Origin: a virus
DNA length: 64,000 bases
Virus record (IMG/VR): IMGVR_UViG_3300022925_000006
Reading direction: 5' to 3' (one strand)
Position numbers and translations under genes: made by a program. The notes beneath the pieces were generated by a model. It did no database searches. It worked only from the letters and a program-made list of their open reading frames with translations, and was not told the origin of the DNA. Of this stretch, positions 10,324-53,070 are shown piece after piece (within the stretch, counting starts at the first letter, position 1; every line of letters starts with the position of its first letter).

Positions 10324-10784
10324 AATTAAGCAAAAACTTTTCACTCAAAGAGTTTACAAGGTCAATGACCGCAACTCGTTTGGGTATTGATAACACACCT
10401 GAAGGCGAACACTTAACGGCTGCAAAAGAATTATTCACTAATGTGATTCAACCAGTGAGAGACAAATTTGGTATCACTCGAATCACTTCGGGTTATCGTT
10501 CACCAGCACTAAACGAAGCAATCGGTGGTTCTACAAAGTCACAACACTGTAAGGGTCAAGCTGTTGACTTTGAATGTGACAGGGCAGATAACCTAGTAGT
10601 TGCACAGTGGATTAGGGACAATTTAAAATTTGACCAACTCATCTCGGAGTTCTATGAAGCAGGTGACCCAACATCTGGTTGGATTCACGTTACTTGGGTA
10701 AGTGCAGAACACAATCGTAACAGATGTCTGACCGCAAAACGTGTAGATGGTAAAGTACAATATAGTGTTGGATTGCCTGAATGA
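10320..10784 (+). CDS. Peptidase M15A endolysin
   Basis: SGYRSPALN, SQHCKGQAVDF, WIHV Zn ligands. Confidence 0.85.
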   Translation: MKLSKNFSLKEFTRSMTATRLGIDNTPEGEHLTAAKELFTNVIQPVRDKFGITRITSGYRSPALNEAIGGSTKSQHCKGQAVDFECDRADNLVVAQWIRDNLKFDQLISEFYEAGDPTSGWIHVTWVSAEHNRNRCLTAKRVDGKVQYSVGLPE

Positions 10785-11641
10785 ACTTAATCTTTCAATA
10801 TATGATTACGAACGAGGAAACCGAGAAACGGAAGTCTGTTCCTGAGTATCCCCAAGGTACACGTTCTGAGTTATATCGTGTAACTGGTGACCTGTCGGCA
10901 AAATCATTTAGAGAGTATGCCAGAGATATTGGTGTGCATCATCAATACTCAACCAAACAAGTATTTACTGCGGGCAAGACTGGTTCAACTGTGCTGCTTT
11001 TCGAGTGCTTGCGTATCATATATGACCCAATATATGACCGCTATGATAAGATTGCGTTTATCGACAGTGACATTATCTGCAACACACGAGAGAACATTTT
11101 TGACCAAACCAATGGTTATGATGTGACGGGTGTCTTTGAATCTGAGATACGTTCTGGTACGGATGGTGGATACAATACTTGGGACTACAGTGACAAGATT
11201 AAGAAACAGTTGATTACCAAGTATGAACGTAACGGTATCCCAATTGTACCCACAGAATCCCCATATCGTCCGTCCTGCGTCACTACATTCAATACTGGGG
11301 TATTGGTATGGACTAAGGAAGCACGTCTCAAAGCGAGAGAGTGTTTCGATGACTGGTATGAATATATGGCGGATGGGGACAAACACGGTGACCCATTCTG
11401 GTTGAATAACGACCAACCCTTTATCTCTGGCCAGTTGACCAAACATGGGTTCAACATTCAGAGTATAGACCAGAAATGGAATGATACCCCAACCCACTGG
11501 AAAGATGACCGTGGATATGACATGAACTTTCTCCACTACACTGGTGGTGGTAATAAGGTTGTCATGTTGGATGATTATGAAGCTGATAAATTCAGGTATC
11601 TCGTAACCGATGAATACAGGAATCCTTGGCAAGAGCCATAA
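10781..11641 (+). CDS. GT-A fold glycosyltransferase (GT8/GT34-like)
   Basis: FIDSD DxD, FNTGVLVW, NDQPFI, WN...FLHYTG. Confidence 0.7.
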   Translation: MNLIFQYMITNEETEKRKSVPEYPQGTRSELYRVTGDLSAKSFREYARDIGVHHQYSTKQVFTAGKTGSTVLLFECLRIIYDPIYDRYDKIAFIDSDIICNTRENIFDQTNGYDVTGVFESEIRSGTDGGYNTWDYSDKIKKQLITKYERNGIPIVPTESPYRPSCVTTFNTGVLVWTKEARLKARECFDDWYEYMADGDKHGDPFWLNNDQPFISGQLTKHGFNIQSIDQKWNDTPTHWKDDRGYDMNFLHYTGGGNKVVMLDDYEADKFRYLVTDEYRNPWQEP

Positions 11642-11645
11642 ACGC

Positions 11646-11674
11646 TTGACAAAACATGTTTATCTTGTTATAAT
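11646..11674 (+). promoter_or_regulatory. Sigma70 promoter (perfect consensus)
   Basis: TTGACA-N17-TATAAT, extended TG. Confidence 0.8.
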
Positions 11675-11680
11675 ACTAAC

Positions 11681-12298
11681 ATGATGAAAAAAGAACCATT
11701 AACAAAAGGAAAAGAAGTGCTAAGTCAGTACCATAAGGTAATACTTACAGATGCAGATGGTGTTCTCCTGAACTGGGGATATGCCTTCGATGTGTGGATG
11801 ACCGAGAAAGGTTATGTCGCAGAAGACAAATTAAAGTATGATATCGCAGAAATCTACGGTATCACTAAAACAGAATCTAAGAAACTAGTCAGAGAGTTCA
11901 ACGAGTCTGCCCATATGGGTTTTGTGCCTCCGTTAAGAGATGCAATCCAGTATGTCAGAAAGTTGCACGAAGAACACGGTTATGTGTTTCACCTGATTAC
12001 GTCAATGAGTAAAGACGAGAACGCACAGAAACTAAGAACAATGAACATTCAGAAGTTGTTCGGTGAGACTGCGTTTACCAAGTTCATCTACCTCGACACT
12101 GGGGCAGACAAGGATGAGGTATTGAGTCAATACGAAGGAACAGATTATACTTGGGTTGAAGACAAGGTTGAGAATGCACACGCTGGTGCAAACTTTGGTC
12201 TGGATTCTATTGTCATGGAACATGGATACAACATGGACGATGACAGTTTCCCACTCATGAAGGGTTGGAAAGACGTGTACGAGTACCTAGTCGGTTAA
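11681..12298 (+). CDS. HAD-family phosphatase (NT5C / T4 30.2-like)
   Basis: LTDADGVL motif I, WVEDK motif; alternative GTG start at 11717. Confidence 0.75.
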   Translation: MMKKEPLTKGKEVLSQYHKVILTDADGVLLNWGYAFDVWMTEKGYVAEDKLKYDIAEIYGITKTESKKLVREFNESAHMGFVPPLRDAIQYVRKLHEEHGYVFHLITSMSKDENAQKLRTMNIQKLFGETAFTKFIYLDTGADKDEVLSQYEGTDYTWVEDKVENAHAGANFGLDSIVMEHGYNMDDDSFPLMKGWKDVYEYLVG

Positions 12299-12318
12299 AA
12301 CTTCTTATATATAACTAC

Positions 12319-13833
12319 ATGAAAAGATATGTAGGTTACTCAGAATATTACCATGACGCTGCAATGGCCATCGTTAACCCCGATGGTTCAGTCGAATGGG
12401 CATCCCAATCAGAACGTTATAGTGGTAGAAAACACGATGACTTAATACACCCACCTATGTGGGAGTTTGTCAACAGAGAAGACCACGTAACTTTCTACGA
12501 AGACATTGATTTACGAAGAGAGAAGATGGGCGGTTTCCGAACCTTTGGTGGTTGGTCTGACCGTGGATTTCTAAACGAAAAAGCAGAACAAAGCACTCCA
12601 ATGCGTAACTCATTGATGTTTGATTCTTTCAATCTACATCATGAAAGTCATTGTGCTCTTGCATTCTTTACCCGACCTTGGGAATCAAAAGAAGATACTG
12701 TTTGTGTTTCTGTGGACGGTTCAGGCGAACTCGAATCAATCGCAATCTATGACCACAACCTTAAACCAATTAAAAAAATTATGTGGCCTCAGTCCTTGGG
12801 TTCACTCTATGGTCAAGTCGTTGTATCATTAGGATATCAAAATCTCAGAGATGAATATATCATCATGGGTCTTGCGTCCTATGGCAAACCCGATGACACC
12901 CTCTACGAAATACTATACAACGCTTACCACTGGTATGAAAGTGACCATGGGTTGAGGGTTAAACAGATTGTAGATTTTGAGGGTGGTTCAATTGCAGAAA
13001 GTCCCCTGTCAGCAAAATTTGTTCAGTACGGAGAAAGAATTAATAGTAGGTGTAAGGACATTTCACAAGAAGATGCTTCCGCAACTATACAAAAATTCTT
13101 TGAGGATGAAGTCCTTGAGATTATGAAAGAAGCAAGGAAGTATGGTTCTAAACTAGTTTATGGTGGAGGGTGCGCTCAGAACGTTACTGCAAACTCTAAG
13201 ATTTATGAATTGTTTGATGAGATGCATATCGCAATTGCACCCAATGACGCTGGTAATGCTCTGGGGTGTGCTGCATACACATGGCACAAAGAGACTGGTG
13301 GAACACACCTGACATGGTCACCATACCTTGGTCACAACATTGACCGAGAGATAGACCCCAAAGAAGTTGCACAATACCTTGTAGATAATAAAGTGTGTGG
13401 TGTCGCAAATGGACGTGCAGAGTATGGCCCTCGTGCGTTAGGCAACCGTTCTCTCCTTGCAGACGTAAGATTCGATGTGAAGGATACGGTAAACGATATC
13501 AAGCGTAGACATCGATTTAGACCCTTTGCCCCCGCTATTCTATCTGAACATGCAGAAGAATACTTTGATGGCCCAATGAACAAGTATATGCAATTCATCG
13601 CAAAGGCAAAACACGACTATTCGTCTGTTACCCATGTCGATGGAACAGCAAGAGTTCAACTAGTGACTCCAGACTGTGAATCAGTCCTTCGTCAAATACT
13701 AGAAGAATATTATAAATTAACAGGTGTACCGATGTTACTAAATACATCACTGAACATTCGTAACAAACCTATGGTCAATACCATAGAAGATGCAATCGAA
13801 TGGGAAAAGAAATATAAAGTAAAGGTGTTTTAA
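12319..13833 (+). CDS. O-carbamoyltransferase (NodU/CmcH family)
   Basis: HDAA, ERYSGRKHD, HHESH, MGLASYG, GGCAQN, EYGPRALGNRS, RPFAP, HVDGTARVQ, LNTSLN. Confidence 0.92.
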   Translation: MKRYVGYSEYYHDAAMAIVNPDGSVEWASQSERYSGRKHDDLIHPPMWEFVNREDHVTFYEDIDLRREKMGGFRTFGGWSDRGFLNEKAEQSTPMRNSLMFDSFNLHHESHCALAFFTRPWESKEDTVCVSVDGSGELESIAIYDHNLKPIKKIMWPQSLGSLYGQVVVSLGYQNLRDEYIIMGLASYGKPDDTLYEILYNAYHWYESDHGLRVKQIVDFEGGSIAESPLSAKFVQYGERINSRCKDISQEDASATIQKFFEDEVLEIMKEARKYGSKLVYGGGCAQNVTANSKIYELFDEMHIAIAPNDAGNALGCAAYTWHKETGGTHLTWSPYLGHNIDREIDPKEVAQYLVDNKVCGVANGRAEYGPRALGNRSLLADVRFDVKDTVNDIKRRHRFRPFAPAILSEHAEEYFDGPMNKYMQFIAKAKHDYSSVTHVDGTARVQLVTPDCESVLRQILEEYYKLTGVPMLLNTSLNIRNKPMVNTIEDAIEWEKKYKVKVF

Positions 13834-14166
13834 ATGGAAGAAAATAAAGATATGCAAAGAGATTTTTATCATCCCGCAGATTCAAATGGGGACGGTAAAG
13901 TCTCGGATAGAGAACAGGACATGTATTTTGAGTTCAAAAGAAAGGAACTAGAAGACAAAGATGCAATGCGTGACGCACAACGTAAGATGGCATGGTTTGC
14001 CCTCTATGGTATGTTGTTATATCCCTTTGCAGTTGTTTTGACTAATCTACTAGACCTGACCCAATCGGGTATTATTCTGGGTGATATGGCTCCAACATAC
14101 TTTGTATCGGTTGCCGCTATCGTTGCTGCATTCTTTGGTGGACAAGTATTCGCAAATAAGAAGTAG
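13834..14166 (+). CDS. Small membrane protein with EF-hand-like loop
   Basis: DSNGDGKVSDRE followed by two hydrophobic helices. Confidence 0.65.
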   Translation: MEENKDMQRDFYHPADSNGDGKVSDREQDMYFEFKRKELEDKDAMRDAQRKMAWFALYGMLLYPFAVVLTNLLDLTQSGIILGDMAPTYFVSVAAIVAAFFGGQVFANKK

Positions 14167-14169
14167 ATA

Positions 14170-14973
14170 ATGGAAAAGGTTAGGTGGAGAGGTACTTGGG
14201 GTGTTGGTGATGCTATGCAAGCCCTCAACTGTTGTCATAACTATTCTTTTCATAACAAGAAGAAAGTTAATCTAGAAATGCATTGGGAACACGGTGAGGA
14301 TTATCTTCACCATCCCGATGACCCCGAAACAATCATTCAAAGAATGGAATGGATTCACAATCAATATCATCGACAAGATGATGTTACTCTCACCCACGTC
14401 TATAACTCTGACCTGTTCGAACACGGTAATGTAAACCCAAACAAAAGAAAAGACCGATTCTATTTTGATTCAAATGCGTTTGACCCAAAGGAATCTGCTC
14501 CTAATGACTGGGTGTTCAAACCCGAAGCCTTTGTCCCCAAGAAAAAGAAGATAGTTATATGGACACCTCATTATAATAGTGAACCACCAAGAAAGTGGAA
14601 AAGGTTCTTGACAAAAGATGATTGGGGTGTTATAATAAGCTCTCTGCGCTGGGAGGGTTGGATACTAGTTGAATTGACCTATAGAACACCTATTAAAGAT
14701 GTGTTCAAACAGATACAAGAAGCTGATTTTATAGTCTGTTACGATGGTATGTGGCATTATATTGCACGAAACTTTGGTAAACCTTTGTTCGTACCATCAT
14801 GGGAACAGATTACTTATTTCAATACACCTCAAGCAGTAACAAGACCAAATAGACATGAGGTACTAGATTTCTTTGGAGATGGTAATGAATCATTCACACC
14901 CAATCTCAATGAGATGAAATCTAAAGCACAAGACTATATAGACATGTTACAAGAAAGATACTATGAAAGATAA
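14170..14973 (+). CDS. GT-B fold glycosyltransferase-like (GT9-like)
   Basis: GVGD near N-terminus; ADFIVCYDGMWHYIARNFGKP resembles the GT9 C-terminal motif. Confidence 0.55.
   Translation: MEKVRWRGTWGVGDAMQALNCCHNYSFHNKKKVNLEMHWEHGEDYLHHPDDPETIIQRMEWIHNQYHRQDDVTLTHVYNSDLFEHGNVNPNKRKDRFYFDSNAFDPKESAPNDWVFKPEAFVPKKKKIVIWTPHYNSEPPRKWKRFLTKDDWGVIISSLRWEGWILVELTYRTPIKDVFKQIQEADFIVCYDGMWHYIARNFGKPLFVPSWEQITYFNTPQAVTRPNRHEVLDFFGDGNESFTPNLNEMKSKAQDYIDMLQERYYER
14608..14636 (+). promoter_or_regulatory. Intragenic sigma70 promoter
   Basis: TTGACA-N17-TATAAT with extended TG, inside a CDS. Confidence 0.6.
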
Positions 14974-15003
14974 AAAGATACTACAAGTAATAGGGGATTT
15001 AGT

Positions 15004-15963
15004 ATGAAAATTGATAGAGCAGTAATTGAAATAAACGGTGGGTGTAACTACTCGTGTACTATGTGTCCTCAAGATATGAGAACAGGTGGACGTGATAAAA
15101 GATTCCTACGTAAGATGAACCTATTAGAGTTTGAGAACAACGTAGCTGATTGTGCAAAACATGGACTCAATGTAGTTAACCTAGAAGGTAGTGGAGAACC
15201 CACACTGAACAGAAATCTACCTGAGTACATTAAGATTGTTAAGAAGTATGGTGCGAAGTGTTTCATGTTCTCTAATGGATTCCGTATGCACGGTGACTTT
15301 ATGAAGAAGTGTGTTGATGCGGGATTAGACTTCTATAGATTTTCATTCATTGGATACAATCCTGATAAATATCAAGAATGGATGCATAATACTCAAGGCG
15401 GTAACTTTGATTTCATTTGTAAGAACATCAAAGAGATGCAAGAATATGTAAAAGAAACGGGTAGTGACTGTGTGGTCGCAACCTACCATCTTATAACTGA
15501 TAATGATAATTTAGAGGAGGAACTTAATGAATATAAAGCAGTGGTTAATAGACTTGGAGTTAAAACAGAAATTTGGAAGATGCATAACTGGTCTGGAGTC
15601 TATGATAACAAAGACAAACGTCAAGGTAAAGTTAAAACGTGCGGTAGGCCATTCTCTCCTGATGTTGTTATACGTGCTGGCGGTCTTGACGGGAAAACTG
15701 GGGCAGTGGCTCCTTGTTGTCAAGTCTTGGGCAGAGACGAAGAGGCAGTCCTTGGTCATACGAGTGAGAAGTCTATAGAGGATATATGGAACGATATTCC
15801 ATACACCGAACTTAGGGAACAACACACAACAGGAGATTATCCCGACTATTGTAAGGGGTGTGACTTCCTTCTAGATGACCCTGAAGTATTAGTCTATAGT
15901 AATCACGATAGAGACCTACATAAGATGCATGGAACTGATTTTGACCTTGAAGATTACCGATAA
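15004..15963 (+). CDS. Radical SAM protein with SPASM/twitch domain
   Basis: CNYSCTMC, GSGEP, C-terminal CGRPF...PCC...CKGC. Confidence 0.88.
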   Translation: MKIDRAVIEINGGCNYSCTMCPQDMRTGGRDKRFLRKMNLLEFENNVADCAKHGLNVVNLEGSGEPTLNRNLPEYIKIVKKYGAKCFMFSNGFRMHGDFMKKCVDAGLDFYRFSFIGYNPDKYQEWMHNTQGGNFDFICKNIKEMQEYVKETGSDCVVATYHLITDNDNLEEELNEYKAVVNRLGVKTEIWKMHNWSGVYDNKDKRQGKVKTCGRPFSPDVVIRAGGLDGKTGAVAPCCQVLGRDEEAVLGHTSEKSIEDIWNDIPYTELREQHTTGDYPDYCKGCDFLLDDPEVLVYSNHDRDLHKMHGTDFDLEDYR

Positions 15964-16555
15964 TATATGGATGATACAGATACCTGATAGTAAGGTATCT
16001 CAACATTATGCAAAACAGGCAATACAAAGTTGGGAATCTCACGGTTTTCAAGTAAATCTATTTGATGCAGTCACTCCAAAGACTCTACATCTATATGACG
16101 ATATACAGCTTGACCAGTATCACGGTAAACGTGATTTCACTGATACTGAAATGGGTTGTTGGTATAGTCACTATCTGTTATGGGAGAAATGTGTTGAAGA
16201 ACGAACGCCCATAACAATTATAGAACACGATACCGAATGTCTTACTTCTGATATGCCTATTATCGCACCATACTTTTCAATCTGTGATTTTCAGAATAAT
16301 GAAGAGTTTCATAACTATTGTGATAGGTTTGAAGGACACCCTTATTGGTGGCATTACAAGTTATGCCCTATTACTTCTGGATATTATATTGAACCAGAAC
16401 AGGCCGAAGACTTGTTATTAGAATGTGTGACCAAGAGACATACAAGATATGTTGATGATATAATGTTTGATAAATTAAATAAAGATTTAAATTTAATTGC
16501 GGATTACTGTAGACCTATATATGATACAAAGGTAGGAGGAACAGTTGACCACTAG
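15929..16555 (+). CDS. GT25-like glycosyltransferase
   Basis: FDAV, EMGCWYSHYLLWEKC, IIEHD; true start may be 15971. Confidence 0.7.
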   Translation: MELILTLKITDNIWMIQIPDSKVSQHYAKQAIQSWESHGFQVNLFDAVTPKTLHLYDDIQLDQYHGKRDFTDTEMGCWYSHYLLWEKCVEERTPITIIEHDTECLTSDMPIIAPYFSICDFQNNEEFHNYCDRFEGHPYWWHYKLCPITSGYYIEPEQAEDLLLECVTKRHTRYVDDIMFDKLNKDLNLIADYCRPIYDTKVGGTVDH

Positions 16556-17339
16556 AATGATATTCCAAGTGTCGGTGGGTAAACCATCTAAACTATACGA
16601 ACACTGTATTGAATCAGTCGCACATTATTGTGCGAAGTATGACATTGAACATATCGTATTGACTCAACCTAAACTAAGAATCAAACCTGATATCTTTACC
16701 AGTGGACGTAGTGAAGAATCCTACATGAAATATGGTGGATATCTTCCTATCTTTGAAAAGGAAAATGCATTTGACTATCTCGATAGATTTGACCAGATTG
16801 CAATTGTGGATGCCGACATTTACATCCGAAATGATGCACCCAATATATTTGATGATTTTGGTACTGACCACGCATTTGGGGCAGTAGTAGAACGTGAAAT
16901 GGATATACAGTCTTGGTATGGAAACAAGATTATAAACTATTCACAGATGCAGTACCGACACCTACACAGTTCTGGCCATGGAGACTTCAAACCAAACAAT
17001 CTGGGATACGAGTTCTTTAATATGGGGTTGATTCTCCTGAACTCCAAGTTATTCAAACCATACCTCAAGGGACAAGACCCTCACAGTTTCCTGAACCGTA
17101 TGGAATTTAAAGACTTTGTAGACGGTGTTGGTGCATACAAGTGGAGTACTGACCAGACCCTACTAAACTATTTCCTGAAGAAGTATAGAATACCTACCAA
17201 ACATATGGAAGGTAAATGGAATGGACTATTCAGTGCAATCAATAATGTAAAAGATTGTAACTTTGTGCATTTCTTTCTAAAGGATAAACTCCCTGACGGT
17301 GGAGAAAATGTTGACCAGTTAATGAGTCAAATTATATAA
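16545..17339 (+). CDS. GT-A fold glycosyltransferase (GT8-like)
   Basis: IVDADIY, FFNMGLIL, DQTLLN, WN...FVHF. Confidence 0.7.
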   Translation: MTTRMIFQVSVGKPSKLYEHCIESVAHYCAKYDIEHIVLTQPKLRIKPDIFTSGRSEESYMKYGGYLPIFEKENAFDYLDRFDQIAIVDADIYIRNDAPNIFDDFGTDHAFGAVVEREMDIQSWYGNKIINYSQMQYRHLHSSGHGDFKPNNLGYEFFNMGLILLNSKLFKPYLKGQDPHSFLNRMEFKDFVDGVGAYKWSTDQTLLNYFLKKYRIPTKHMEGKWNGLFSAINNVKDCNFVHFFLKDKLPDGGENVDQLMSQII

Positions 17340-17342
17340 ATA
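17335..17342 (+). promoter_or_regulatory. T4-type late promoter
   Basis: TATAAATA upstream of AGGAG RBS and ATG 17393. Confidence 0.7.
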
Positions 17343-17392
17343 CTATAGACAATACCGTCAATTATATTAATAGAGTGAATAGGAGAACCCTA

Positions 17393-21704: not shown

Positions 21705-22290
21705 GGTTATATTCATACATATTCCTAAGAATGGAGGAATGACTATACAACACAACGGTGTGTTTAAAGATAAAGTTCATATCCATTTATGGAAAAAAGA
21801 ACATCGTCATTGGCGATATCTTGATATGAAAGACGATATATTAAAAAAGTATAAAACTTTTGCTATAGTAAGAAACCCTTGGTCAAGAATTGTATCTCGT
21901 TATATGTGGTCAAAACTTGATTGGCCAAAAGAATATCCAAAATTTACTTCGTTTGAAGATTTTATTGAACAACGAAATGAATTTCCAACCGAGGATTTTT
22001 ATATGTGCCCTATTCGTAGTTGGTTAACTCAATACGATTATGTTGTTGAAGAAGACGAAAAAATTAATAGTAACATTCTTCGTTTTGAAAACTATGATGA
22101 GGACATAAATTTATATTTTAATTTAAAACATAATGTGACACCTAGTAATGTTACAGGATACGATATATCTTACAGGGATATATACACTAAAGAAACTATA
22201 CAGATTGTAGCCGATTGGTATCAAAAGGACATTGACCATTGGGGATTTGACTTTGATACAGGTGCAACGAGGAACTATTGGAATGCTTAA
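21697..22290 (+). CDS. Sulfotransferase family 2, tandem paralog
   Basis: FIHIPKNGGMTI, IVRNPWSRIVSRY, LRFEN. Confidence 0.82.
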   Translation: MDKVIFIHIPKNGGMTIQHNGVFKDKVHIHLWKKEHRHWRYLDMKDDILKKYKTFAIVRNPWSRIVSRYMWSKLDWPKEYPKFTSFEDFIEQRNEFPTEDFYMCPIRSWLTQYDYVVEEDEKINSNILRFENYDEDINLYFNLKHNVTPSNVTGYDISYRDIYTKETIQIVADWYQKDIDHWGFDFDTGATRNYWNA

Positions 22291-22900
22291 ACAATTATTT
22301 GACAAATACAAGTGCGATAAGGGCACAGAGAAACATCATTACTATAAAGAGTATGAACCATACATGGAGTCTGTAAGAGAAGAACCTATCAATCTTCTTG
22401 AGATTGGTACGTTTAAGGCAGCTTCTACTCGTGCATTTCATGAATACTTTCCTAACGGAACAATTTACACTATTGATATCTTTACTCGCACCAATCCCAA
22501 AGACCTAGATATTCTGAGTGAAGAACGTGTCAAGTGGTTAAAAGCAGATTCTATGGACGCATCTCTTGGTACGAAAATGAGGAATGCGTGGGGTGATGTC
22601 GAGTTTGATTTTATTATCGATGATGGCGCTCACTGGCCCGAAGCTAATCGACTGACCTTTGAGAACTGTATCCCGTTCCTAAAAGATGATGGAACATACT
22701 TTATCGAAGATATATGGCCTATGCATCGTATGAGTCAAGCAGAGTTACAACACCCTTGGATTCAGAATAGATTAGACCTGTATGACATGTTGAAACATAA
22801 CCGTCTTATGACTAAACTCTCAGAATATAGTCACAAGACATACGATAGACGCAAGGAAACTAAGTGTGGTGACACTTATATTATAGCGGTAAATAAATGA
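22283..22900 (+). CDS. SAM-dependent (sugar O-)methyltransferase
   Basis: CDKG..HHY, LLEIG, FDFIIDDGAH, YFIED. Confidence 0.8.
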   Translation: MLKQLFDKYKCDKGTEKHHYYKEYEPYMESVREEPINLLEIGTFKAASTRAFHEYFPNGTIYTIDIFTRTNPKDLDILSEERVKWLKADSMDASLGTKMRNAWGDVEFDFIIDDGAHWPEANRLTFENCIPFLKDDGTYFIEDIWPMHRMSQAELQHPWIQNRLDLYDMLKHNRLMTKLSEYSHKTYDRRKETKCGDTYIIAVNK

Positions 22901-24243
22901 TAAAGACAATTCTATTTGACCTAGACGGTGTTCTGGTCAGTACTAAGAAAATACATTTCGATGCTTTGAATGAAGCGTTGGATAAGTTTGGTTATCCACA
23001 AATAACAGTAAAGGAACATCTATCTAAGTATGACGGTCTGACTACAGAAGATAAGTTGGAAAGGCTGGGTGTATCGAAGGACGTGATTGATAAACTTCAA
23101 ATACACAAACAATCTGTCACTTACTACAAAATGAACACTATCAAACCGAACAAGGACATTACTGAAGTCTTTGGTAAACTTAAAGAACTTGGATTTACTA
23201 TTGGTATCTGTTCTAATGCTATCGGTAAGACTGTACAAAAATGCGTAGAGATGTTACAACTTGATGAGTATGTGGATGTTGTTCTGAGTAGTTACGATGT
23301 TACCAACCCAAAACCACACCCTGAGATTTGGTGGAATGCAATGATAGGTTTGGGTGTACATCCTTCTGAGTGTATCATCATCGAAGATTCTCCGACAGGA
23401 TTGATGTCTGCATATTCTAGTGGTGTACCTGAACATCAAATTCTACGAGTTAGTTCTCCCGAAGATGTTACTCTAAGTTTGGTTGATAGAATTCAAAATG
23501 GCAAAAATACGACACTTAAATGGGTTGACCCAAAGATGAACGTATTGATTCCTATGGCGGGTGCGGGTAGTCGATTTGCAAAAGCTGGATATAGTTTTCC
23601 CAAACCTTTGATTGATGTCAATGGTAAACCAATGATTCAGACTGTGGTCGAGAACCTTGGTATTGATGCAAACTATATCTTTATTGTACAGAAGGAACAC
23701 CGAGAAAAGTATAACTTAGACTCTATGTTAAATTTGATTGCACCAAACTGTAGAATCATTGAAGTAGATGGTGTTACCGAAGGTGCAGCTTGCACGACAT
23801 TACTTGCAGAAGAGTATATTGCCAATGAACAACCACTGATTATTGCAAACTCTGACCAATGGGTAGATTGGAATCCAATTGAGTTTATGTATAAGATGCA
23901 AGAACTAAACGCAGATGGTGGTATTGTTACTTTTAAAGCAACACACCCTAAGTGGAGTTATGCAAAAGTTGATAATGATGGCATGGTAACCAAGGTTGCC
24001 GAAAAAGACCCAATCAGTGATAATGCGACTGTTGGTTTCTATTACTGGAAACGTGGTGAGGATTATGTTGAGTCTGCAAAAGATATGATTGCTATGCAGA
24101 AACGAGTGAACGGTGAGTTCTATGTGTGTCCTGTATTCAATCAGGCAATTCTAATGGGTAAGAAAATCTTTATTCATGAAGCATCTGAGATGTGGGGACT
24201 TGGTACACCCGAAGACCTAGAGACATACTTACGTGGTTGCTAA
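22897..24243 (+). CDS. HAD phosphatase fused to sugar/polyol nucleotidyltransferase
   Basis: FDLDGVL, KPHP, IEDS; then IPMAGAGSRF, PKPLI, EK, GLGTPEDL. Confidence 0.85.
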   Translation: MIKTILFDLDGVLVSTKKIHFDALNEALDKFGYPQITVKEHLSKYDGLTTEDKLERLGVSKDVIDKLQIHKQSVTYYKMNTIKPNKDITEVFGKLKELGFTIGICSNAIGKTVQKCVEMLQLDEYVDVVLSSYDVTNPKPHPEIWWNAMIGLGVHPSECIIIEDSPTGLMSAYSSGVPEHQILRVSSPEDVTLSLVDRIQNGKNTTLKWVDPKMNVLIPMAGAGSRFAKAGYSFPKPLIDVNGKPMIQTVVENLGIDANYIFIVQKEHREKYNLDSMLNLIAPNCRIIEVDGVTEGAACTTLLAEEYIANEQPLIIANSDQWVDWNPIEFMYKMQELNADGGIVTFKATHPKWSYAKVDNDGMVTKVAEKDPISDNATVGFYYWKRGEDYVESAKDMIAMQKRVNGEFYVCPVFNQAILMGKKIFIHEASEMWGLGTPEDLETYLRGC

Positions 24244-25001
24244 TGAAGATTGCATTGTGTCTATCGGGTAGATGGAATGAGTTTTGTGATTCAAAGTGGG
24301 TAGAACGTTCGAGGGAAATTCTTCCTCACGATAAGATGTTCACTGGTTTATGGAATGGTCAAAGTGCGGTGGATACCACCGTAGATTTCTATTTTGATGA
24401 ACCCGAAAACAAATATCATCCTGTATTTGATACTGAAGCCTATCCTGATGATGCGTCTCGTTTAAGACGGGATATCTTTCCTAAACTACTTAAAAATGCC
24501 GAAGAGGGAGACACTAGTCATAGTCAGTTGAAACACGCACATGCATCTGCGAACTGGCACAAACAGATTCTCATACACAATGAGATGATGAAGTCAGTAC
24601 CACAAGAATACGATATGATTATTCGTACACGATTTGATGTAATAGTATCTGACCAATTACCTTGGGATGATATTATCAAAGATGCATACGAAAGAATAAT
24701 TCCGAAAGGATTCAATTGTATGAACTACTATGGCACTCATGACTTCAATAAACTTAAAGGTATGAGTAAGGAGACTACTTACTATATCAATGATGCGTTG
24801 ATAATCCATCCAAGAGAGTGTTGGGATACGGACTTAGTGGATTCTCTATATAAGGATAAGAAGTTAAAAAGTGCAGAAGAGGGATGGTATCAAATACTAT
24901 CCGAACCCTTTGGATTTTATCATGAGAGTTATCATGGTGGATGTTACCTATCAGAGAGATGGGAGTATGTGAGAGATGTTGATGAAAGCCTTCATAATTA
25001 G
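24243..25001 (+). CDS. Hypothetical glycan-cluster protein (MKIALCLSG type)
   Basis: MKIALCLSG and YDMIIRTRFD, GT-A-like. Confidence 0.55.
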   Translation: MKIALCLSGRWNEFCDSKWVERSREILPHDKMFTGLWNGQSAVDTTVDFYFDEPENKYHPVFDTEAYPDDASRLRRDIFPKLLKNAEEGDTSHSQLKHAHASANWHKQILIHNEMMKSVPQEYDMIIRTRFDVIVSDQLPWDDIIKDAYERIIPKGFNCMNYYGTHDFNKLKGMSKETTYYINDALIIHPRECWDTDLVDSLYKDKKLKSAEEGWYQILSEPFGFYHESYHGGCYLSERWEYVRDVDESLHN

Positions 25002-25695
25002 TATGATAAACAACCATGAGTCCACAGTTGCGACTCGTATGGTTATTGAATCTATTAAGAAAACTAAAAGTAAATTAGAACCAATTATTCTACCCGCAAC
25101 TACGCCTATGACAATAGGTGACGGAATGGAGTCTTTGGAGATGTCTGGTATAGCTTGGACATATCCTTTGGACGAACACCAAGACGGTCTTGATATGAAA
25201 ACAGGCCTGCGTCTTACTCATTACAAAACTGCGAACCATCCAAATCGAGTTGCGTGTATGATATCTCATATGAGATGTTGGCAGAAAGCAATCGACCTTG
25301 ATGAGACCATTGTTGTACTGGAACATGATGCACTGTTTGCCAGACAATTAAAACCTAATGACTTGACAGAAGAGTGGAAAGGTGGTATAATAGGGCTTAA
25401 TGACCCAAGAGGTGCAACTAGAAGGTCTCAAGAGTTTCATAGAAAAGTATCATCATTCGTTGGCCTACAACCAGTTCCTAGTGTAGATGACTGGGACGTA
25501 CCCCAAGGTCTTGCGGGTAATTCCGCATATATGATATCACCCAAGGGTGCTAAGAAACTACTAGATAAGGTGAAAGATATCGGAATGTGGCCTAATGATG
25601 CATTGATGTGTAAACAGATGTTTCCGTGGTTACAGGTTGTGTATCCTTATTATACAACTATACAGAGGGGGTTGAAGTCAACCACAACACAATGA
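24976..25695 (+). CDS. GT25-like glycosyltransferase
   Basis: ACMISHMRCW, VLEHDA, AYMISPKGAKKLL. Confidence 0.78.
   Translation: MLMKAFIISMINNHESTVATRMVIESIKKTKSKLEPIILPATTPMTIGDGMESLEMSGIAWTYPLDEHQDGLDMKTGLRLTHYKTANHPNRVACMISHMRCWQKAIDLDETIVVLEHDALFARQLKPNDLTEEWKGGIIGLNDPRGATRRSQEFHRKVSSFVGLQPVPSVDDWDVPQGLAGNSAYMISPKGAKKLLDKVKDIGMWPNDALMCKQMFPWLQVVYPYYTTIQRGLKSTTTQ
25363..25391 (+). promoter_or_regulatory. Intragenic sigma70 promoter
   Basis: TTGACA-N17-TATAAT with extended TG, inside a CDS. Confidence 0.55.
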
Positions 25696-26339
25696 AAGCA
25701 TTTGTAATTACAATTAAAGACAATCCACAATCATTAAAGGTTGCGGAACGTTGTATCGAATCTGGATGGAGACATGAACTTCAAATTAAAATGTTTGATG
25801 CCATTACTCCTAAAGATAATCCTGTAGAACTATTAAAGACAAGGGGTATTGACCCCGTACAATTTGATGAGAAGTATTCTCGTAACTTGAATTGTATTTC
25901 GGCATTCCTATCACACTACGCATTGTGGGAAGCCTGTTCCAAGGGTAACGAGAACTTTGTTATCTTTGAACATGATGCCGTGATGGTGGCACCACTACCA
26001 TTTGTGTTTCCTAACTATGTGATGAATATGGGAAAACCATCTTACGGTAAGTGGAACACTCCACCAATGTTAGGGATTAATCCGTTAACAACTAAACGAT
26101 ATTTTCCTGGCGCTCATGCGTACATGGTGACTCCAGCTGGTGCAAGACTATTGGTGGAGAATGCGCCACTGTATGCAAAACCAACTGACGTTTATTTAAA
26201 TCTGACCACATTCCCTTGGTTACAAGAGTGTTATCCTTTCGTTGCAGAAGCTAGAGATACTTTCACGACTATTCAAGTTGAAGAAGGTTGTAAAGCAAAA
26301 CATAATTGGAAAGAAGGATATGAAATCATCGATGCGTGA
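25692..26339 (+). CDS. GT25-like glycosyltransferase
   Basis: FDAITP, AFLSHYALW, IFEHDA, AYMVTPAGARLL. Confidence 0.78.
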   Translation: MKAFVITIKDNPQSLKVAERCIESGWRHELQIKMFDAITPKDNPVELLKTRGIDPVQFDEKYSRNLNCISAFLSHYALWEACSKGNENFVIFEHDAVMVAPLPFVFPNYVMNMGKPSYGKWNTPPMLGINPLTTKRYFPGAHAYMVTPAGARLLVENAPLYAKPTDVYLNLTTFPWLQECYPFVAEARDTFTTIQVEEGCKAKHNWKEGYEIIDA

Positions 26340-26997
26340 AGTATTTTTAACAGGGTGTGACGTAAACACCGAATGGCAATTGCCGTGGTTTATTAAGAAG
26401 TATAGAGAACACAATACGACTCCAATTATTTGTGCTGACTTTGGTATGAGCAAGGACGGTCGTAAACTTGCAGAAGAACACTTTGATTTGGTTATTGGTA
26501 TCATGAGTGAAGCACAAGGGTGGTTCAAGAAACCTCGTGCAATTCTGGACGCAACCAAACTAGATGATGTTGAAAAGGTTTGTTGGTTGGACACTGATTG
26601 TGAAGTTACCGATGACATCTCAACTATTTTTGATTTGACCGAAAAGGGTAAACTGGGTATGGTCAAAGACAGGCCTTGGTCTACTCGTAGAGATGAACTT
26701 GGAGAATGGTATAACTCTGGTGTAGTCGCAGTAGAAGGAACGCCTAATATCCTACGTGCGTGGGCAGACGAATGTATTCGCAATCCTGTACAGGGTGACC
26801 AAGAGGTTTTATATCTTATGATGGGTGGTGATGCCCTCAAGAAGTTATCATGCATTCAACCTATACCACACTCATATAACACTTTAAGATTAGACTACAT
26901 AGATAACATACAAGTAAAGAATCCAAAGATTATCCATCACACGGGTAAGAAGGGTAATGAAGTAATAAGGAGTCAAATGAATGAATTATCTAATTGA
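26320..26997 (+). CDS. GT-A fold glycosyltransferase (GT8-like)
   Basis: WLDTDC, YNSGVV, GDQEVL, IIHHTG. Confidence 0.7.
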   Translation: MKSSMREVFLTGCDVNTEWQLPWFIKKYREHNTTPIICADFGMSKDGRKLAEEHFDLVIGIMSEAQGWFKKPRAILDATKLDDVEKVCWLDTDCEVTDDISTIFDLTEKGKLGMVKDRPWSTRRDELGEWYNSGVVAVEGTPNILRAWADECIRNPVQGDQEVLYLMMGGDALKKLSCIQPIPHSYNTLRLDYIDNIQVKNPKIIHHTGKKGNEVIRSQMNELSN

Positions 26998-27196
26998 AGC
27001 ATTGGTTAAAAAACTAGAAGGTGAGATTGCGGTTGCACAAGCAAACATTACGGTGTACCAAAAGAATCCTGCTGGTATCGGAGAACACTCTGATATCGTA
27101 GAAGCGATTGAAGTGCAAATCGGTAAGATTGCAGAAGCAGAAGATAAACTCAATGTTTGTCTTGAACATTTTGGATTTGGAAAAAGGAATGCATGA
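26981..27196 (+). CDS. Conserved small phage protein
   Basis: AGGAG RBS; NPAGIGEHSDI motif. Confidence 0.7.
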   Translation: MNYLIEALVKKLEGEIAVAQANITVYQKNPAGIGEHSDIVEAIEVQIGKIAEAEDKLNVCLEHFGFGKRNA

Positions 27197-27596
27197 ATAC
27201 AGAACAAAAGTAGTACGTGTCGTTGATGGTGATACCGTTGACGTTGACATCGATTTAGGTTTTGGTGTCTGGTTAAGAAAAGAACGTATTCGCTTACTTG
27301 GTATCGACACCCCCGAATCACGAACACGTGATAAAGTTGAAAAGAAATATGGATTGGCTGCAAAAGCATTCCTCAAGAAAGCTTTAGGAACAACCCCTAT
27401 TCTTAAAACAACAAAGGATGGTAAGGGTAAGTTCGGACGTATCCTTGGTACATTTGTTGTTGAATATGACGATGGTAGTCGGATTGATATCAATCAATAT
27501 TTGGTTGACAATTACCATGCAGTAGAGTATAATGGACAATCTAAAGAAATTATTAAAGACCAACATTTGGCAAATAGAGAATTAGTACAACTATGA
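27189..27596 (+). CDS. Thermonuclease (SNase) family protein
   Basis: VVDGDT, IRLLGIDTPE, KFGRILG. Confidence 0.85.
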   Translation: MHEYRTKVVRVVDGDTVDVDIDLGFGVWLRKERIRLLGIDTPESRTRDKVEKKYGLAAKAFLKKALGTTPILKTTKDGKGKFGRILGTFVVEYDDGSRIDINQYLVDNYHAVEYNGQSKEIIKDQHLANRELVQL

Positions 27597-27847
27597 AAGT
27601 ATTACACAACAACGTCCTAGTGACACAAGCAGAAGTTGAAGAGAAAACCGCAGGTGGTATTATCCTATCGGGTGATGTCACGTCTGGTAATAAGCCAGCA
27701 ATCGTTATCGCAGTTGGTGATACGGTTGAGGATATCAAACCCAAGAACAAAGTATTTCTTGACTGGAGTAAATCCATGCCAGTAGAGATTGATGGTTTGA
27801 AGTGTGCGGTAATAAACCAATTAGATATTAAGTTGATTGTAGAGTAA
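27593..27847 (+). CDS. groES: Co-chaperonin GroES-like
   Basis: EEKTAGGIIL mobile loop, VIAVG. Confidence 0.8.
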   Translation: MKVLHNNVLVTQAEVEEKTAGGIILSGDVTSGNKPAIVIAVGDTVEDIKPKNKVFLDWSKSMPVEIDGLKCAVINQLDIKLIVE

Positions 27848-27850
27848 AAC

Positions 27851-28477
27851 ATGAGAGTTAATGTTCTAGGTAATGGTGACCATGCGGGAATCTTTAAGAG
27901 AGGAACGCCAGGCAAATTGTTGATTTGCAATATGCCCCCATTTGAAATTCCTCGTAGTGAAGTACACGCAACTTGTATGGTTGACTTCAAGATGATGAAG
28001 GCACTTCAAGAGGGTCGCATCAAACTGGACATGTATGATTGGGTATTGGGTCAAAGACCTAAAATCTGGATGGAACAGTCTGGAACATTCTATATGAAAT
28101 ACTCACATCTTATCAAGGGATTCTATACTCATATTCCCCCATATGCGGCAGGAAAGGGTGACCCCAAGATGGCTGCAACTAACTTCAATTGTGGCCACAT
28201 GGCAGTCCATTATGCATGTGCAAAGATGAGGGCTACCGAGGTTCACATCTATGGGTTTGATAGTATTTTTGATATGAACCTAGAGAGTTTCACTGACCTA
28301 CTTCTAGAGTCAGACCGCAGTACTGGTAACACTGTTAGACTCGCAAACAACTGGAGACCCATATGGACTAATATGTTTAAGGAGTTTCCTAATGTTGAGT
28401 TTAATCTATACCACTCTCATAATAACATCAAGATTCCTATTGGTGACAATGTAAAGATTCGTGCAAAAAGAACTTGA
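27851..28477 (+). CDS. Hypothetical, GT29/MAF-like fold possible
   Basis: VLGNG at N-terminus, GHMAV...EVHIYGFD. Confidence 0.5.
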   Translation: MRVNVLGNGDHAGIFKRGTPGKLLICNMPPFEIPRSEVHATCMVDFKMMKALQEGRIKLDMYDWVLGQRPKIWMEQSGTFYMKYSHLIKGFYTHIPPYAAGKGDPKMAATNFNCGHMAVHYACAKMRATEVHIYGFDSIFDMNLESFTDLLLESDRSTGNTVRLANNWRPIWTNMFKEFPNVEFNLYHSHNNIKIPIGDNVKIRAKRT

Positions 28478-28521: not shown

Positions 28522-28597
28522 CGACTTATGGTGAAACTGGATATCATACGAGTCTTCTAAACTTGGGTTCAAGGTTCGAGTCCTTGTAGGTCGGCCA
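28522..28597 (+). tRNA. tRNA-Arg(TCT)
   Basis: Cloverleaf: CGACTTA/TAGGTCG acceptor, anticodon loop CTTCTAA, TTCGAGT T-loop, encoded CCA. Confidence 0.9.
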
Positions 28598-28607
28598 ATC
28601 AATCACT

Positions 28608-53059: not shown

Positions 53060-53070
53060 TTAATAATGCT

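What the first reader, a model, noticed from the sequence alone, without database searches (positions are those of the whole stretch)
10781..28477. ~17.7 kb phage glycan synthesis and decoration locus
Seen: three GT8-like, three GT25-like, one GT9-like and further GT-like ORFs, two carbohydrate-type sulfotransferases, two methyltransferases, an O-carbamoyltransferase, a SPASM radical SAM enzyme and a HAD-nucleotidyltransferase, mostly translationally coupled. No flippase, polymerase or lipid-carrier priming transferase is present, which argues against a standard O-antigen or capsule export pathway. Carbamoyl, sulfate and methyl tailoring resembles Nod-factor-style sugar decoration. Inference: a cytoplasmic pathway that builds a complex modified glycan directly on virion proteins (see the DS motif finding), or less likely on DNA or host LPS.
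Basis: partly seen in the sequence, partly recalled or inferred. Interest (0 to 1): 0.75.

Follow-up and report, generated by a model that had tools for sequence, protein, structure and literature searches.

The report
Marine phage glycan-building gene cluster
An uncultured marine T4-like phage carries about 23 back-to-back genes for soluble enzymes that should build and decorate a complex sugar chain; this is a new variant of the 'LPS gene clusters' already known in ocean phages, and what the sugar is attached to remains open.

Summary
Window 10781-28477 is one + strand array of 26 ORFs in a T4-like marine myovirus. About 23 are glycan-type enzymes. Nine are putative glycosyltransferases: 3 GT25, 3 weak GT8-like, 1 GT9-like lead, 1 new GT-A fold, 1 Maf/CstII-like fold. 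There are also 2 sulfotransferases with intact PAPS motifs, 2 methyltransferases, a NodU/TobZ-type carbamoyltransferase, a radical SAM/SPASM enzyme and a HAD-nucleotidyltransferase fusion. No flippase, polymerase or priming transferase is present; the only membrane protein is a 110-aa two-helix protein.

The array is syntenic in at least 15 IMG/VR contigs, with a smaller conserved core in more distant ones. Conserved perfect sigma-70 promoters and one conserved late promoter drive it.

The kind is published: LPS clusters near phoH and tRNAs in cyanomyoviruses, and LPS-related genes in pelagimyophages. This scan has also reported similar loci on other DNA. The gene set, however, is almost absent from deposited phages.

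The target is unresolved. A missing flippase does not exclude LOS-type host lipid A-core modification. An Asp-Ser-(Ala/Asp) excess in outer virion proteins occurs only in genomes that carry the core, which mildly favours virion glycosylation.

The parts
10781..11641 (+). GT8-like glycosyltransferase (weak assignment)
   Evidence: Pfam Glyco_transf_8 E 6e-3, below the cut-off. hhalign 84% to the 16557 family. Homologues in L021 (54%) and C48C1 (46%).
11646..11674 (+). Perfect sigma-70-type promoter (TTGACA-17-TATAAT with TG) in the 39-nt gap before 11681
   Evidence: Six 12/12 sites on the + strand of the window against 0.07 expected.
11681..12298 (+). HAD-like hydrolase
   Evidence: phrog_420 E 2.7e-30. 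HAD_2 E 5.7e-4, below the cut-off.
12319..13833 (+). O-carbamoyltransferase of the NodU/TobZ/CmcH type (ORF opens at 12265; ATG at 12319 preferred)
   Evidence: Carbam_trans_N 5.4e-33 and Carbam_trans_C 2.2e-48. phrog_1601 9.3e-84. 51% identity to C48C1 and 27-29% to S-SSM7, P-SSM2 and HTVC008M.
13834..14166 (+). Small protein with an acidic EF-hand-like N-terminus and two hydrophobic helices; part of the conserved core
   Evidence: Sequence and hydropathy. Lies directly before the 16557 homologue in distant loci.
14170..14973 (+). GT9-like protein (lead only); contains an internal perfect sigma-70 promoter at 14608-14636
   Evidence: Atlas features score 0.96 to a viral PF01075 cluster. No Pfam or PDB sequence hit. 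Promoter conserved in 8 of 8 relatives.
15004..15963 (+). Radical SAM enzyme with SPASM domain
   Evidence: Radical_SAM 4.8e-16 and SPASM 1.1e-8. 64-82% identical in 16 loci.
15971..16555 (+). GT25 glycosyltransferase 1
   Evidence: Glyco_transf_25 5.9e-16. hhalign 93-98% to the other two GT25s.
16557..17339 (+). GT8-like glycosyltransferase (core gene, invariant DAD)
   Evidence: Pfam GT8 E 0.013. 26 homologues among the loci. No PDB sequence hit.
17335..17342 (+). T4-type late promoter motif TATAAATA, 51 nt before the ATG at 17393
   Evidence: An exact copy lies between the 16557 homologue and the next gene in 9 of 9 relatives.
17393..19924 (+). Variable slot: ferritin-like di-iron protein (17393-18091), class-I glutamine amidotransferase-like (18092-18643), cupin (18640-19308), P-loop sulfotransferase-like lead (19286-19924)
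   Evidence: The slot is replaced by a TctA transporter cassette in L013 and L014. It therefore may not belong to the glycan pathway.
19914..20483 (+). Conserved protein of unknown family with a GAPGSRWSG loop
   Evidence: 612 homologues, none with a Pfam domain. No PDB hit of note.
20467..21012 (+). Class I SAM methyltransferase (weak HMM hits, VLDVGCG motif)
20997..22290 (+). Two tandem paralogous carbohydrate-type sulfotransferases (20997-21704 and 21697-22290)
   Evidence: Sulfotransfer_2 1.2e-6 and 8.4e-8. hhalign 100%. PAPS-type motifs kept. Relatives have one copy only.
22283..22900 (+). Methyltransf_24 methyltransferase
   Evidence: Pfam 2.9e-6, above the cut-off. phrog_21658.
22897..24243 (+). 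HAD (beta-phosphoglucomutase-like) fused to a sugar-1-phosphate nucleotidyltransferase
   Evidence: HAD_2 2.3e-37 and NTP_transferase 2.9e-11. The C-terminal domain hits 4evw at 5.6e-24, and HddC-type and mannose-1-P guanylyltransferases at 1e-5 to 1e-4. 216 relatives in IMG/VR.
24243..25001 (+). GT-A fold glycosyltransferase of no described family
   Evidence: AF2 pLDDT 89. Foldseek gave 79 matches at E <= 1e-3 (vaccinia H3, GT6, SpsA, GnT-I). No Pfam or PDB sequence hit. Tandem paralogues in distant loci.
25003..26339 (+). GT25 glycosyltransferases 2 and 3 (25003-25695 and 25692-26339), with an internal perfect sigma-70 promoter at 25363-25391
   Evidence: Pfam 5.6e-13 and 2e-12. Promoter conserved in 9 of 9 relatives.
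26320..26997 (+). GT8-like glycosyltransferase (invariant DTD)
   Evidence: Pfam GT8 4.8e-4 and Nucleotid_trans 0.013. The profile hits glycogenin-1 at E 0.045 over 157 residues.
26981..27847 (+). Interposed genes not related to glycans: phrog_1811 ORF, SNase-like nuclease, Cpn10 co-chaperonin
27851..28477 (+). Maf/CstII-type (GT42-like fold) transferase; core gene
   Evidence: AF2 pLDDT 87.6. VIA Z 11.2 to Maf 5mu5 (rmsd 3.7, 167 aa) and Z 9.4-10.4 to CstII. Foldseek is weak, E 3e-3. Found in 1 of 50,697 phage records.

Best explanation
The locus is a phage-encoded, export-free assembly line for a decorated oligosaccharide.

Inferred steps:
1. The HAD-nucleotidyltransferase fusion turns a host sugar phosphate into an NDP-sugar.
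2. Up to nine soluble glycosyltransferases add residues in turn: 3 GT25, 3 GT8-like, 1 GT9-like, 1 novel GT-A and 1 Maf/CstII-like. The last probably uses a host CMP-sugar.
3. A carbamoyltransferase, two sulfotransferases (host PAPS) and two methyltransferases tailor the chain.

Transcription starts early from host-type sigma-70 promoters. From 17393 onward it continues late.

My preferred acceptor, by a narrow margin, is the phage's own outer baseplate and fibre proteins, glycosylated in the cytoplasm before or during assembly. This would work as in Maf-type flagellin glycosylation, mycobacteriophage virions and giant-virus fibrils.

Shown: gene content, conservation, promoter motifs and the motif excess. 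Inferred: every enzymatic step, the order of steps and the acceptor.
For: Enzyme families and folds.

No export parts, and all but one ORF soluble.

Conservation implies function:
- Eleven IMG/VR loci span the homologues from 14170 to 27851 in the same order at 43-99% identity. Four more are cut by contig ends.
- A core (13834, 16557, 25003, 25692, 26320, 27851, usually with 22283 and 22897) persists in distant loci.

Promoters:
- Six perfect TTGACA-17-TATAAT sites lie on the + strand, against 0.07 expected.
- Their positions are kept inside coding DNA in 8 of 8 and 9 of 9 relatives, and TATAAATA is kept in 9 of 9.

Virion link:
- D-S-[A/D] counts in ORFs of at least 250 aa downstream of gp6: window 28 observed against 3.6 expected, G001 52 against 9.9, G003 82 against 16.1.
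- C48C1, with a partial gene set: 23 against 9.6.
- HTVC008M 9 against 8.1 and Melnitz 5 against 6.9. The rest of the window: 3 against 5.6.
- In 58 clade loci the median ratio is 4.2, range 1.8-7.2.
- All six outer proteins of the window are enriched. Their likely counterparts by size, position and annotation, the gp8-like and VrlC-like ORFs of HTVC008M, Melnitz and C48C1 (not aligned here), are not.

The top structural match of 27851, Maf, is a protein O-glycosyltransferase.

Near-identical contigs over 24-29 of 30 bins occur in 4 of 4 metatranscriptome libraries. This is presence in an RNA library, not proof of transcription.
Against: No modification is shown anywhere.

The motif-gene co-occurrence is one clade against two outgroups, which is effectively one evolutionary event. 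No within-clade loss was found to test it. Other follow-ups of this scan read the Asp-Ser excess as a structural turn of fibre repeats (e1-6049205).

The strongest promoters are early-type, whereas the proposed substrates are late proteins.

The conserved core includes a two-helix membrane protein. A purely cytoplasmic protein-glycosylation route does not need one.

GT8, GT9, GT25 and CstII-type enzymes are the classical LOS/LPS-core families.

The locus lies about 24 kb from the fibre genes, not among them.

The GT8-like and GT9-like assignments are weak.
Confidence: 0.4

Rival explanations
1. Host envelope remodelling. The soluble transferases extend the host's lipid A-core (LOS-type) or another lipid-linked acceptor at the inner face of the cytoplasmic membrane. 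Host MsbA/Lpt then export it. The infected cell surface changes, which blocks superinfection or stops progeny from sticking to debris.
For: - GT25 (three), GT8-like, GT9-like and CstII-like folds are the families that build LOS in Neisseria, Haemophilus and Campylobacter, and that route needs no flippase, polymerase or priming transferase of its own (family knowledge, recalled; families).
- Conserved perfect sigma-70 promoters imply expression from the start of infection.
- A small two-helix membrane protein belongs to the invariant core, directly before a GT8-like gene.
- This is the published reading for pelagimyophages and cyanomyoviruses (PMC7029224, PMC3037559, PMC12801897; passages read).
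Against: - The only cellular homologues that the pattern scan found (it reaches only proteins matching two peptide patterns): the GT25 profile found 3 genome contigs, all MAG contigs of three unrelated taxa. All three carry the same phage synteny, so no host-derived LOS genes were seen.
- Nine transferases plus tailoring is far more than known seroconversion modules use.
- This reading does not explain the clade-specific D-S-[A/D] excess in virion proteins or the conserved late promoter.
- I know of no lytic-phage precedent for cytoplasmic LOS rebuilding.
Confidence: 0.33
2. A soluble or otherwise non-virion, non-LPS product. Examples are a decorated oligosaccharide or glycoconjugate metabolite (Nod-factor- or aminoglycoside-like), or glycosylation of host cytoplasmic or other phage non-structural proteins.
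For: - NodU/TobZ-family carbamoyltransferases, radical SAM/SPASM enzymes, cupins and amidotransferases are typical of small-molecule pathways.
- All enzymes are soluble.
Against: - No scaffold-forming enzyme (NodC-type GT2, NodA/B, aminocyclitol synthase) and no exporter among the 28 ORFs scanned.
- The amidotransferase-cupin block sits in a swappable slot.
Confidence: 0.12
3. DNA hypermodification. The transferases glycosylate modified bases of phage DNA to evade restriction, as in T-even phages.
For: - Phage glycosyltransferases are best known from DNA glucosylation.
- The locus has early promoters.
Against: - The complete close relative G001 (149 kb, terminal repeats, gp6 73% identical) has no PF00303-family gene, so no ThyA-type hydroxymethylase.
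- No family here resembles the T4 alpha- or beta-glucosyltransferases.
- I know of no sulfated or carbamoylated DNA sugars, and nine transferases are excessive.
Confidence: 0.03
4. Non-functional cargo ('stuffer DNA'), as once considered for cyanophage LPS clusters.
For: - The idea was raised in PMC3037559 (passage read).
- Some homologues of 26320 and 27851 in relatives contain in-frame stops.
Against: - Synteny and 43-99% protein identity without frame breaks in most of 15 contigs.
- Invariant catalytic-type motifs.
- Conserved promoters.
Confidence: 0.02

Closest known systems
'LPS' / cell-wall-synthesis-and-modification gene clusters of marine T4-like myoviruses (P-SSM2, S-SSM7, S-SM2, S-SCSM2R) and the LPS-related genes of pelagimyophages (PMC3037559, PMC12801897, PMC7029224; passages read)
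   Same: - T4-like backbone.
- Position in the plastic region next to phoH and tRNA genes.
- Many glycosyltransferases plus sugar-activating enzymes and a Nol-like carbamoyltransferase.
- Function never tested.
   Different: - The gene set is largely different. The 27851 family occurs in 1 of 50,697 deposited phage records, and the GT25 lineage has only 6 weak matches.
- Sulfotransferases, a Maf/CstII-like enzyme and a radical SAM/SPASM enzyme are present.
- No NDP-sugar epimerase or dehydratase genes are present.
- The genome is about 150 kb, not over 230 kb (relative G001).
LOS outer-core assembly of Neisseria, Haemophilus and Campylobacter (Lgt/Lic2A GT25, LgtC GT8, heptosyltransferases GT9, CstII GT42); recalled knowledge
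   Same: - The same combination of transferase families.
- Soluble or peripheral enzymes.
- No dedicated flippase, polymerase or priming transferase.
   Different: - Nothing here shows a lipid A-core acceptor.
- Sequence relation is at family level only.
- Sulfation and carbamoylation are not LOS features I know of.
Cytoplasmic protein O-glycosylation: Maf flagellin glycosyltransferases (PDB 5mu5), virion glycosylation of cluster F1 mycobacteriophages (Freeman et al. 2023, seen only as a citation in PMC12801897), glycan clusters of giant viruses (recalled)
   Same: - Soluble virus- or cell-encoded transferases acting on folded proteins without export machinery.
- 27851 matches Maf best (Z 11.2).
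- Methylation as tailoring.
   Different: - No acceptor is demonstrated.
- Far more transferases than in mycobacteriophages.
- The host is presumably Gram-negative and marine.
Nod-factor decoration (NodU carbamoyl, NodH sulfate, NodS/NoeI methyl); recalled
   Same: Carbamoyl, sulfate and methyl tailoring of a sugar chain.
   Different: - No NodA/B/C.
- The carbamoyltransferase scores 152 bits against a NodU cut-off of 1000.
- The sulfotransferases belong to Sulfotransfer_2.

Membership tests
LPS/CWSM-type gene clusters of marine T4-like myoviruses | T4-like myovirus genome | tested here: met
   gp6, gp8, gp25, gp32, baseplate hub and RNR families. gp6 is 30-38% identical to Kyanoviridae records.
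LPS/CWSM-type gene clusters of marine T4-like myoviruses | Cluster of several glycosyltransferases and sugar-nucleotide enzymes in the plastic region near phoH and tRNA genes | tested here: met
   PhoH at 9637-10323. Two tRNA-Arg at 28522-28682. Nine putative transferases between them. The feature is described in PMC3037559 (passage read).
LPS/CWSM-type gene clusters of marine T4-like myoviruses | Orthology of the transferase set with the published clusters | tested here: not met
   The carbamoyltransferase is only 27-29% identical. The 27851 family occurs in 1 of 50,697 records. GT25 25692 has 6 weak hits of at most 38%. Megablast of the whole locus found no match.
Wzx/Wzy- or ABC-transporter-dependent O-antigen/capsule pathway | Polyprenyl-phosphate priming transferase, flippase or ABC exporter, polymerase | tested here: not met
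   None among the 28 ORFs scanned. No ORF has more than two hydrophobic helices.
LOS/LPS-core-type assembly | Transferases of families GT8, GT9, GT25 and GT42 | tested here: inconclusive
   GT25 is above the cut-off three times. GT8 is below the cut-off three times. GT9 rests on language-model features only. A GT42/Maf-type fold has Z 9.4-11.2.
LOS/LPS-core-type assembly | Acceptor is lipid A-Kdo/heptose core at the inner membrane | not testable with these tools
   The only indirect hint is a conserved two-helix membrane protein in the core.
Cytoplasmic protein O-glycosylation (Maf-type, virion glycosylation) | Soluble transferases, no export step | tested here: met
Cytoplasmic protein O-glycosylation (Maf-type, virion glycosylation) | Identified acceptor protein with modified Ser/Thr | not testable with these tools
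   The candidate sequon D-S-[A/D] is enriched 5-8 times in outer virion ORFs of genomes carrying the core. No modification data exist.
Maf / GT42 sialyltransferase-like enzymes (for ORF 27851) | Fold of the catalytic domain | tested here: met
   Z 11.2 (5mu5, rmsd 3.7, 167 aa). Z 10.4-9.4 (CstII, 167-192 aa). The next unrelated folds score about Z 8.
Maf / GT42 sialyltransferase-like enzymes (for ORF 27851) | Sequence-family membership and a CMP-sugar supply | tested here: inconclusive
   No Pfam hit at E <= 5 and no PDB profile hit. No CTP_transf_3 gene in G001 or G003, so any CMP-sugar would come from the host.
Nod-factor biosynthesis | NodC chitin-oligomer synthase, NodB deacetylase, NodA acyltransferase; NodU equivalog | tested here: not met
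   No such families in 28 ORFs. NodU model scores 152 bits against a cut-off of 1000.
T-even-type DNA glycosylation | Hydroxymethylase of the ThyA family making the acceptor base | tested here: not met
   No PF00303 match in the complete relative G001; the control genomes did match. The window's own genome outside the window could not be searched.

The most novel reading that the evidence does not exclude
The locus writes a sulfated, carbamoylated and methylated oligosaccharide onto serines of an Asp-Ser-(Ala/Asp) sequon on the outer baseplate and fibre proteins. This would be a sequon-directed virion glycosylation system in T4-like phages of marine bacteria, with a Maf/CstII-like enzyme among its transferases. 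It would make the particle surface, not the host surface, the purpose of the long-puzzling 'LPS genes' of ocean myoviruses.
Probability: 0.25. Interest if true: 0.85.

Novelty: new variant of a known kind. Interest (0 to 1): 0.5.

Why it matters
Sugar-gene clusters were noted in ocean myoviruses at least as early as 2010 (PMC3037559) and have never been assigned a target.

This clade offers a compact core of six to eight genes, a candidate acceptor motif confined to outer virion proteins, and mapped promoters. Together these turn the question 'virion or host surface?' into an experiment that could be run by co-expression, without a cultured host.

If the glycan sits on fibres, it would change how host recognition, particle stability and grazing or antibody-like recognition of abundant marine phages are understood. 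If it sits on host LOS, it would be the first case I know of where a lytic phage rebuilds the host core oligosaccharide.

Tried and rejected
**Searches that found nothing or too little**
- Megablast of the whole locus against 50,697 phage records: no match.
- PDB profile searches for the 24243, 14170, 27851, 19286, 19914, 17393 and 16557 families: nothing usable.
- hhalign of 19286 and 19914 against the sulfotransferases: no link, probability at most 0.2%. The idea that they are extra sulfotransferases rests only on an Atlas lead for 19286 (0.93-0.94) and on loop motifs.
- The 19914 family has 612 homologues but none with a Pfam domain.
- PADLOC: only generic radical-SAM/viperin and methyltransferase similarities.

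**Host origin**
- The GT25 profile scan of 185,579 species genomes gave only 3 loci. All three are phage-like contigs binned into MAGs of three unrelated taxa. No host assignment and no host origin follow from this.

**With/without contrasts for the D-S-[A/D] test**
- Large contigs that share only the HAD-nucleotidyltransferase turned out not to be close T4-like relatives.
- The 80 gp8 relatives are all inside the clade, with a uniformly raised motif ratio.
- Of the four further contigs searched for the 27851 family, only the one long one (108 kb) carries it; the three short fragments are uninformative.
- No independent loss event was therefore available.

**Collagen-type coupling**
- The complete relative G001 has no PF13640 oxygenase, so GT25 with a lysyl hydroxylase is rejected for this clade.

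**Phage-supplied donors**
- No APS kinase and no CMP-sugar synthetase in G001 or G003.

**RNA evidence**
- Only assembled contigs of RNA libraries could be laid. They show presence, not transcription, strand or start sites.

**Not done**
- Complex prediction was not used, because enzyme-substrate pairs are a poor use of it.

Full report
**What the window is.** The 64-kb window belongs to an uncultured T4-like myovirus.
- PHROG scans find RNR subunits, gp32, the baseplate hub, tail tube, gp25, gp6 and gp8-type wedge proteins, and fibres.
- gp6 is 37.6% identical to Phage C48C1 (Kyanoviridae). It is 33% identical to the OM43 phage Melnitz, 32% to Pelagibacter phage HTVC008M and 30% to cyanophage S-PM2.
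- No whole genome is held, and megablast of the locus against deposited phages finds nothing.
- Near-identical DNA occurs in salt-marsh and seawater metagenome runs. 20 of 24 listed runs hold part of the stretch, and 14 hold at least half of the sampled words.
- The host is unknown. Three MAG contigs that carry the same locus come from three unrelated taxa and look like binned phage contigs.

**The observation.** From 10781 to 28477 there are 26 consecutive + strand ORFs. With the starts I prefer, 20 of 25 junctions overlap or lie within 3 nt.

*Secure assignments:*
- three GT25 enzymes;
- a two-domain carbamoyltransferase;
- a radical SAM/SPASM enzyme;
- two Sulfotransfer_2 enzymes;
- a Methyltransf_24 enzyme;
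- a HAD plus NTP_transferase fusion.

The two sulfotransferases are tandem paralogues (hhalign 100%) and keep the HIPKNGGMT and VRNPW.R..SRY motifs. Relatives have only one copy. The nucleotidyltransferase domain is closest to an NDP-sugar pyrophosphorylase (4evw, 5.6e-24). More weakly it resembles heptose-1-P and mannose-1-P guanylyltransferases.

*Weak assignments:*
- The three GT8-like ORFs are all below the Pfam cut-off. Invariant DxD motifs, weak glycogenin hits and one hhalign link support them.
- The GT9-like call for 14170 is a language-model lead only.
- The second methyltransferase (20467) shows a VLDVGCG motif.

*Two unassigned ORFs became transferases after folding with alignments of relatives:*
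- 24243-25001 is a GT-A fold.
- 27851-28477 has the Maf/CstII fold.

That gives nine putative transferases. Nothing resembles a flippase, polymerase, ABC exporter or priming transferase. The only membrane candidate is the 110-aa ORF 13834-14166, which has an acidic EF-hand-like head and two hydrophobic helices. Three ORFs inside the coordinates (26981-27847) are unrelated: an unknown, a nuclease and Cpn10.

**Conservation and architecture.**
- The HAD-nucleotidyltransferase has 216 relatives in IMG/VR.
- Eleven of the 80 loci kept span the homologues of 14170 to 27851 in the same order. Four more are cut by contig ends, and L030 is a more divergent copy.
- More distant loci, and the three MAG contigs, keep a core: 13834, 16557, 25003, 25692, 26320 and 27851, usually with 22283 and 22897.
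- The block 17393-19286 (di-iron protein, amidotransferase-like, cupin, P-loop protein) is a swappable slot. In L013 and L014 it is replaced by three genes that include a TctA transporter. It therefore may not belong to the glycan pathway.
- The amidotransferase's best NCBIfam hit is gamma-glutamyl-CDP-amidate hydrolase, but at 57 bits against a cut-off of 250. I draw nothing from it.

**Expression signals.**
- The window has six perfect TTGACA-17-TATAAT sites, all on the + strand between 11.6 and 31.8 kb. A composition-matched simulation expects 0.07.
- Three lie in or at the head of the locus (11646, 14608, 25363). A fourth, at 27505, lies inside the nuclease gene before Cpn10.
- The sites inside the 14170 and 25003 homologues are kept at the same offset in 8 of 8 and 9 of 9 relatives.
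- One exact T4-type late motif, TATAAATA, lies at 17335, 51 nt before the next gene. Reading this motif as the T4 late-promoter consensus is recalled.
- An exact copy lies between the 16557 homologue and the following gene in 9 of 9 relatives, including those with the TctA cassette.
- Six of the other ten copies in the window lie 6-128 nt before baseplate, head-closure, end-protector or fibre genes.
- The locus should therefore be transcribed from the start of infection, and its distal two-thirds also late.
- Contigs from four metatranscriptome libraries cover 24-29 of 30 bins at 99% identity. This shows presence in RNA libraries but not transcription.

**What is known.**
- Sullivan et al. 2010 (PMC3037559, passages read) describe large LPS gene clusters near phoH and tRNAs in P-SSM2, S-SSM7 and S-SM2. 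They leave open whether these are functional.
- Zaragoza-Solas et al. 2020 (PMC7029224, passages read) count 162 LPS-related proteins in pelagimyophages, with GT8 the commonest family. They propose O-chain modification to block co-infection.
- A 2025 paper on S-SCSM2R (PMC12801897, passages read) lists 13 transferases and calls that possibly the highest number in a marine phage.
- This scan has also reported similar loci on other DNA (e1-5844000, e1-3418793, e1-5667339).
- The kind is therefore known. The gene set is not: the 27851 family occurs in 1 of 50,697 deposited phage records, and the GT25 lineage has 6 weak matches.
- I found no paper on sulfotransferases in such phage glycan clusters. 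This rests on one search (terms 'sulfotransferase' and 'cyanophage'): 15 papers, 12 listed and seen as listing only, one read in passages.

**The target.**
- *DNA is unlikely.* The complete relative G001 (149 kb, gp6 73% identical) has no ThyA-family gene.
  - It is 7.7 times over expectation in the six ORFs downstream of gp6 in the window.
  - It is 5.2 times over in G001 and 5.1 times in G003, both of which carry the core.
  - It is 2.4 times over in C48C1, which has the 27851-like gene but no GT25 core.
  - It is 1.1 times in HTVC008M and 0.7 times in Melnitz, and 0.5 times in the rest of the window.
  - Across 58 clade loci the median is 4.2.
  - The likely counterparts (by size, position and annotation; not aligned) of the gp8-like and VrlC-like ORFs in the outgroups and in C48C1 are not enriched, so the excess does not seem to be inherited with those proteins.
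- *Limits of this test.* It is still one clade against two outgroups, and I found no lineage that lost the core.
- *Points for the envelope reading.* The early promoters, the membrane protein in the core and the family make-up.
- *Weights.* Virion proteins about 0.40, host envelope about 0.33, other acceptors about 0.12, DNA 0.03, non-functional cargo 0.02.

**Donors.** G001 and G003 encode neither an APS kinase nor a CMP-sugar synthetase. PAPS and any CMP-sugar must therefore come from the host.

**Verdict.** It is a new variant of a known kind.

Noticed in passing
L096 (Synechococcus virus S-PRM1, NC_055761.1 126960-133475): A 614-aa cyanophage protein joins a GT25 domain to a PLOD (collagen lysyl-hydroxylase-type) glucosyltransferase domain. 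It sits directly after two P4H-type 2OG-Fe(II) oxygenase genes and a gene of about 5.5 kb. This looks like a collagen-style hydroxylate-then-glycosylate kit and hints that some phage GT25 enzymes act on proteins. The clade studied here lacks the oxygenase.
   Followed up: partly
window 52061-64000: Asp-Ser-(Ala/Asp) occurs 28 times in six outer baseplate and fibre ORFs against 3.6 expected. It occurs 3 times against 5.6 expected in 22 other ORFs of at least 250 aa. The excess is clade-wide: median ratio 4.2 in 58 related loci.
   Followed up: partly
window 11646, 14608, 25363, 27505, 28474, 31817 (+ strand): Six perfect TTGACA-17-TATAAT promoters, three of them inside coding sequences, against 0.07 expected. 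Near-perfect ones precede gp32 (34334) and the DNA-binding protein gene (32282).
   Followed up: partly
L013 4554-7614 and the same place in L014: In two relatives the di-iron/amidotransferase/cupin/P-loop block is replaced by a cassette with a TctA-family tricarboxylate transporter (303.6 bits) and two unknown ORFs. The cassette sits behind the same late promoter motif.
   Followed up: partly
L008 13682-14347, L030 14116-14793, G016:C1:39642-40268: Homologues of 26320 (two loci) and of 27851 (one contig) contain in-frame stop codons. These could be decay, assembly error or recoding. I did not examine them.
   Followed up: no
L084, L085, L086: Contigs filed in MAGs of Microbacteriaceae, Balneola and Opitutia carry the phage core locus in synteny. 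They are probably phage contigs binned by mistake.
   Followed up: partly
window 2617-4611: The RNR large subunit carries a C-terminal thioredoxin-like domain (phrog_22, residues 561-647).
   Followed up: no
window 28522-28682: Two tRNA-Arg genes (TCT and ACG) follow the locus directly, behind a perfect sigma-70 promoter at 28474.
   Followed up: no
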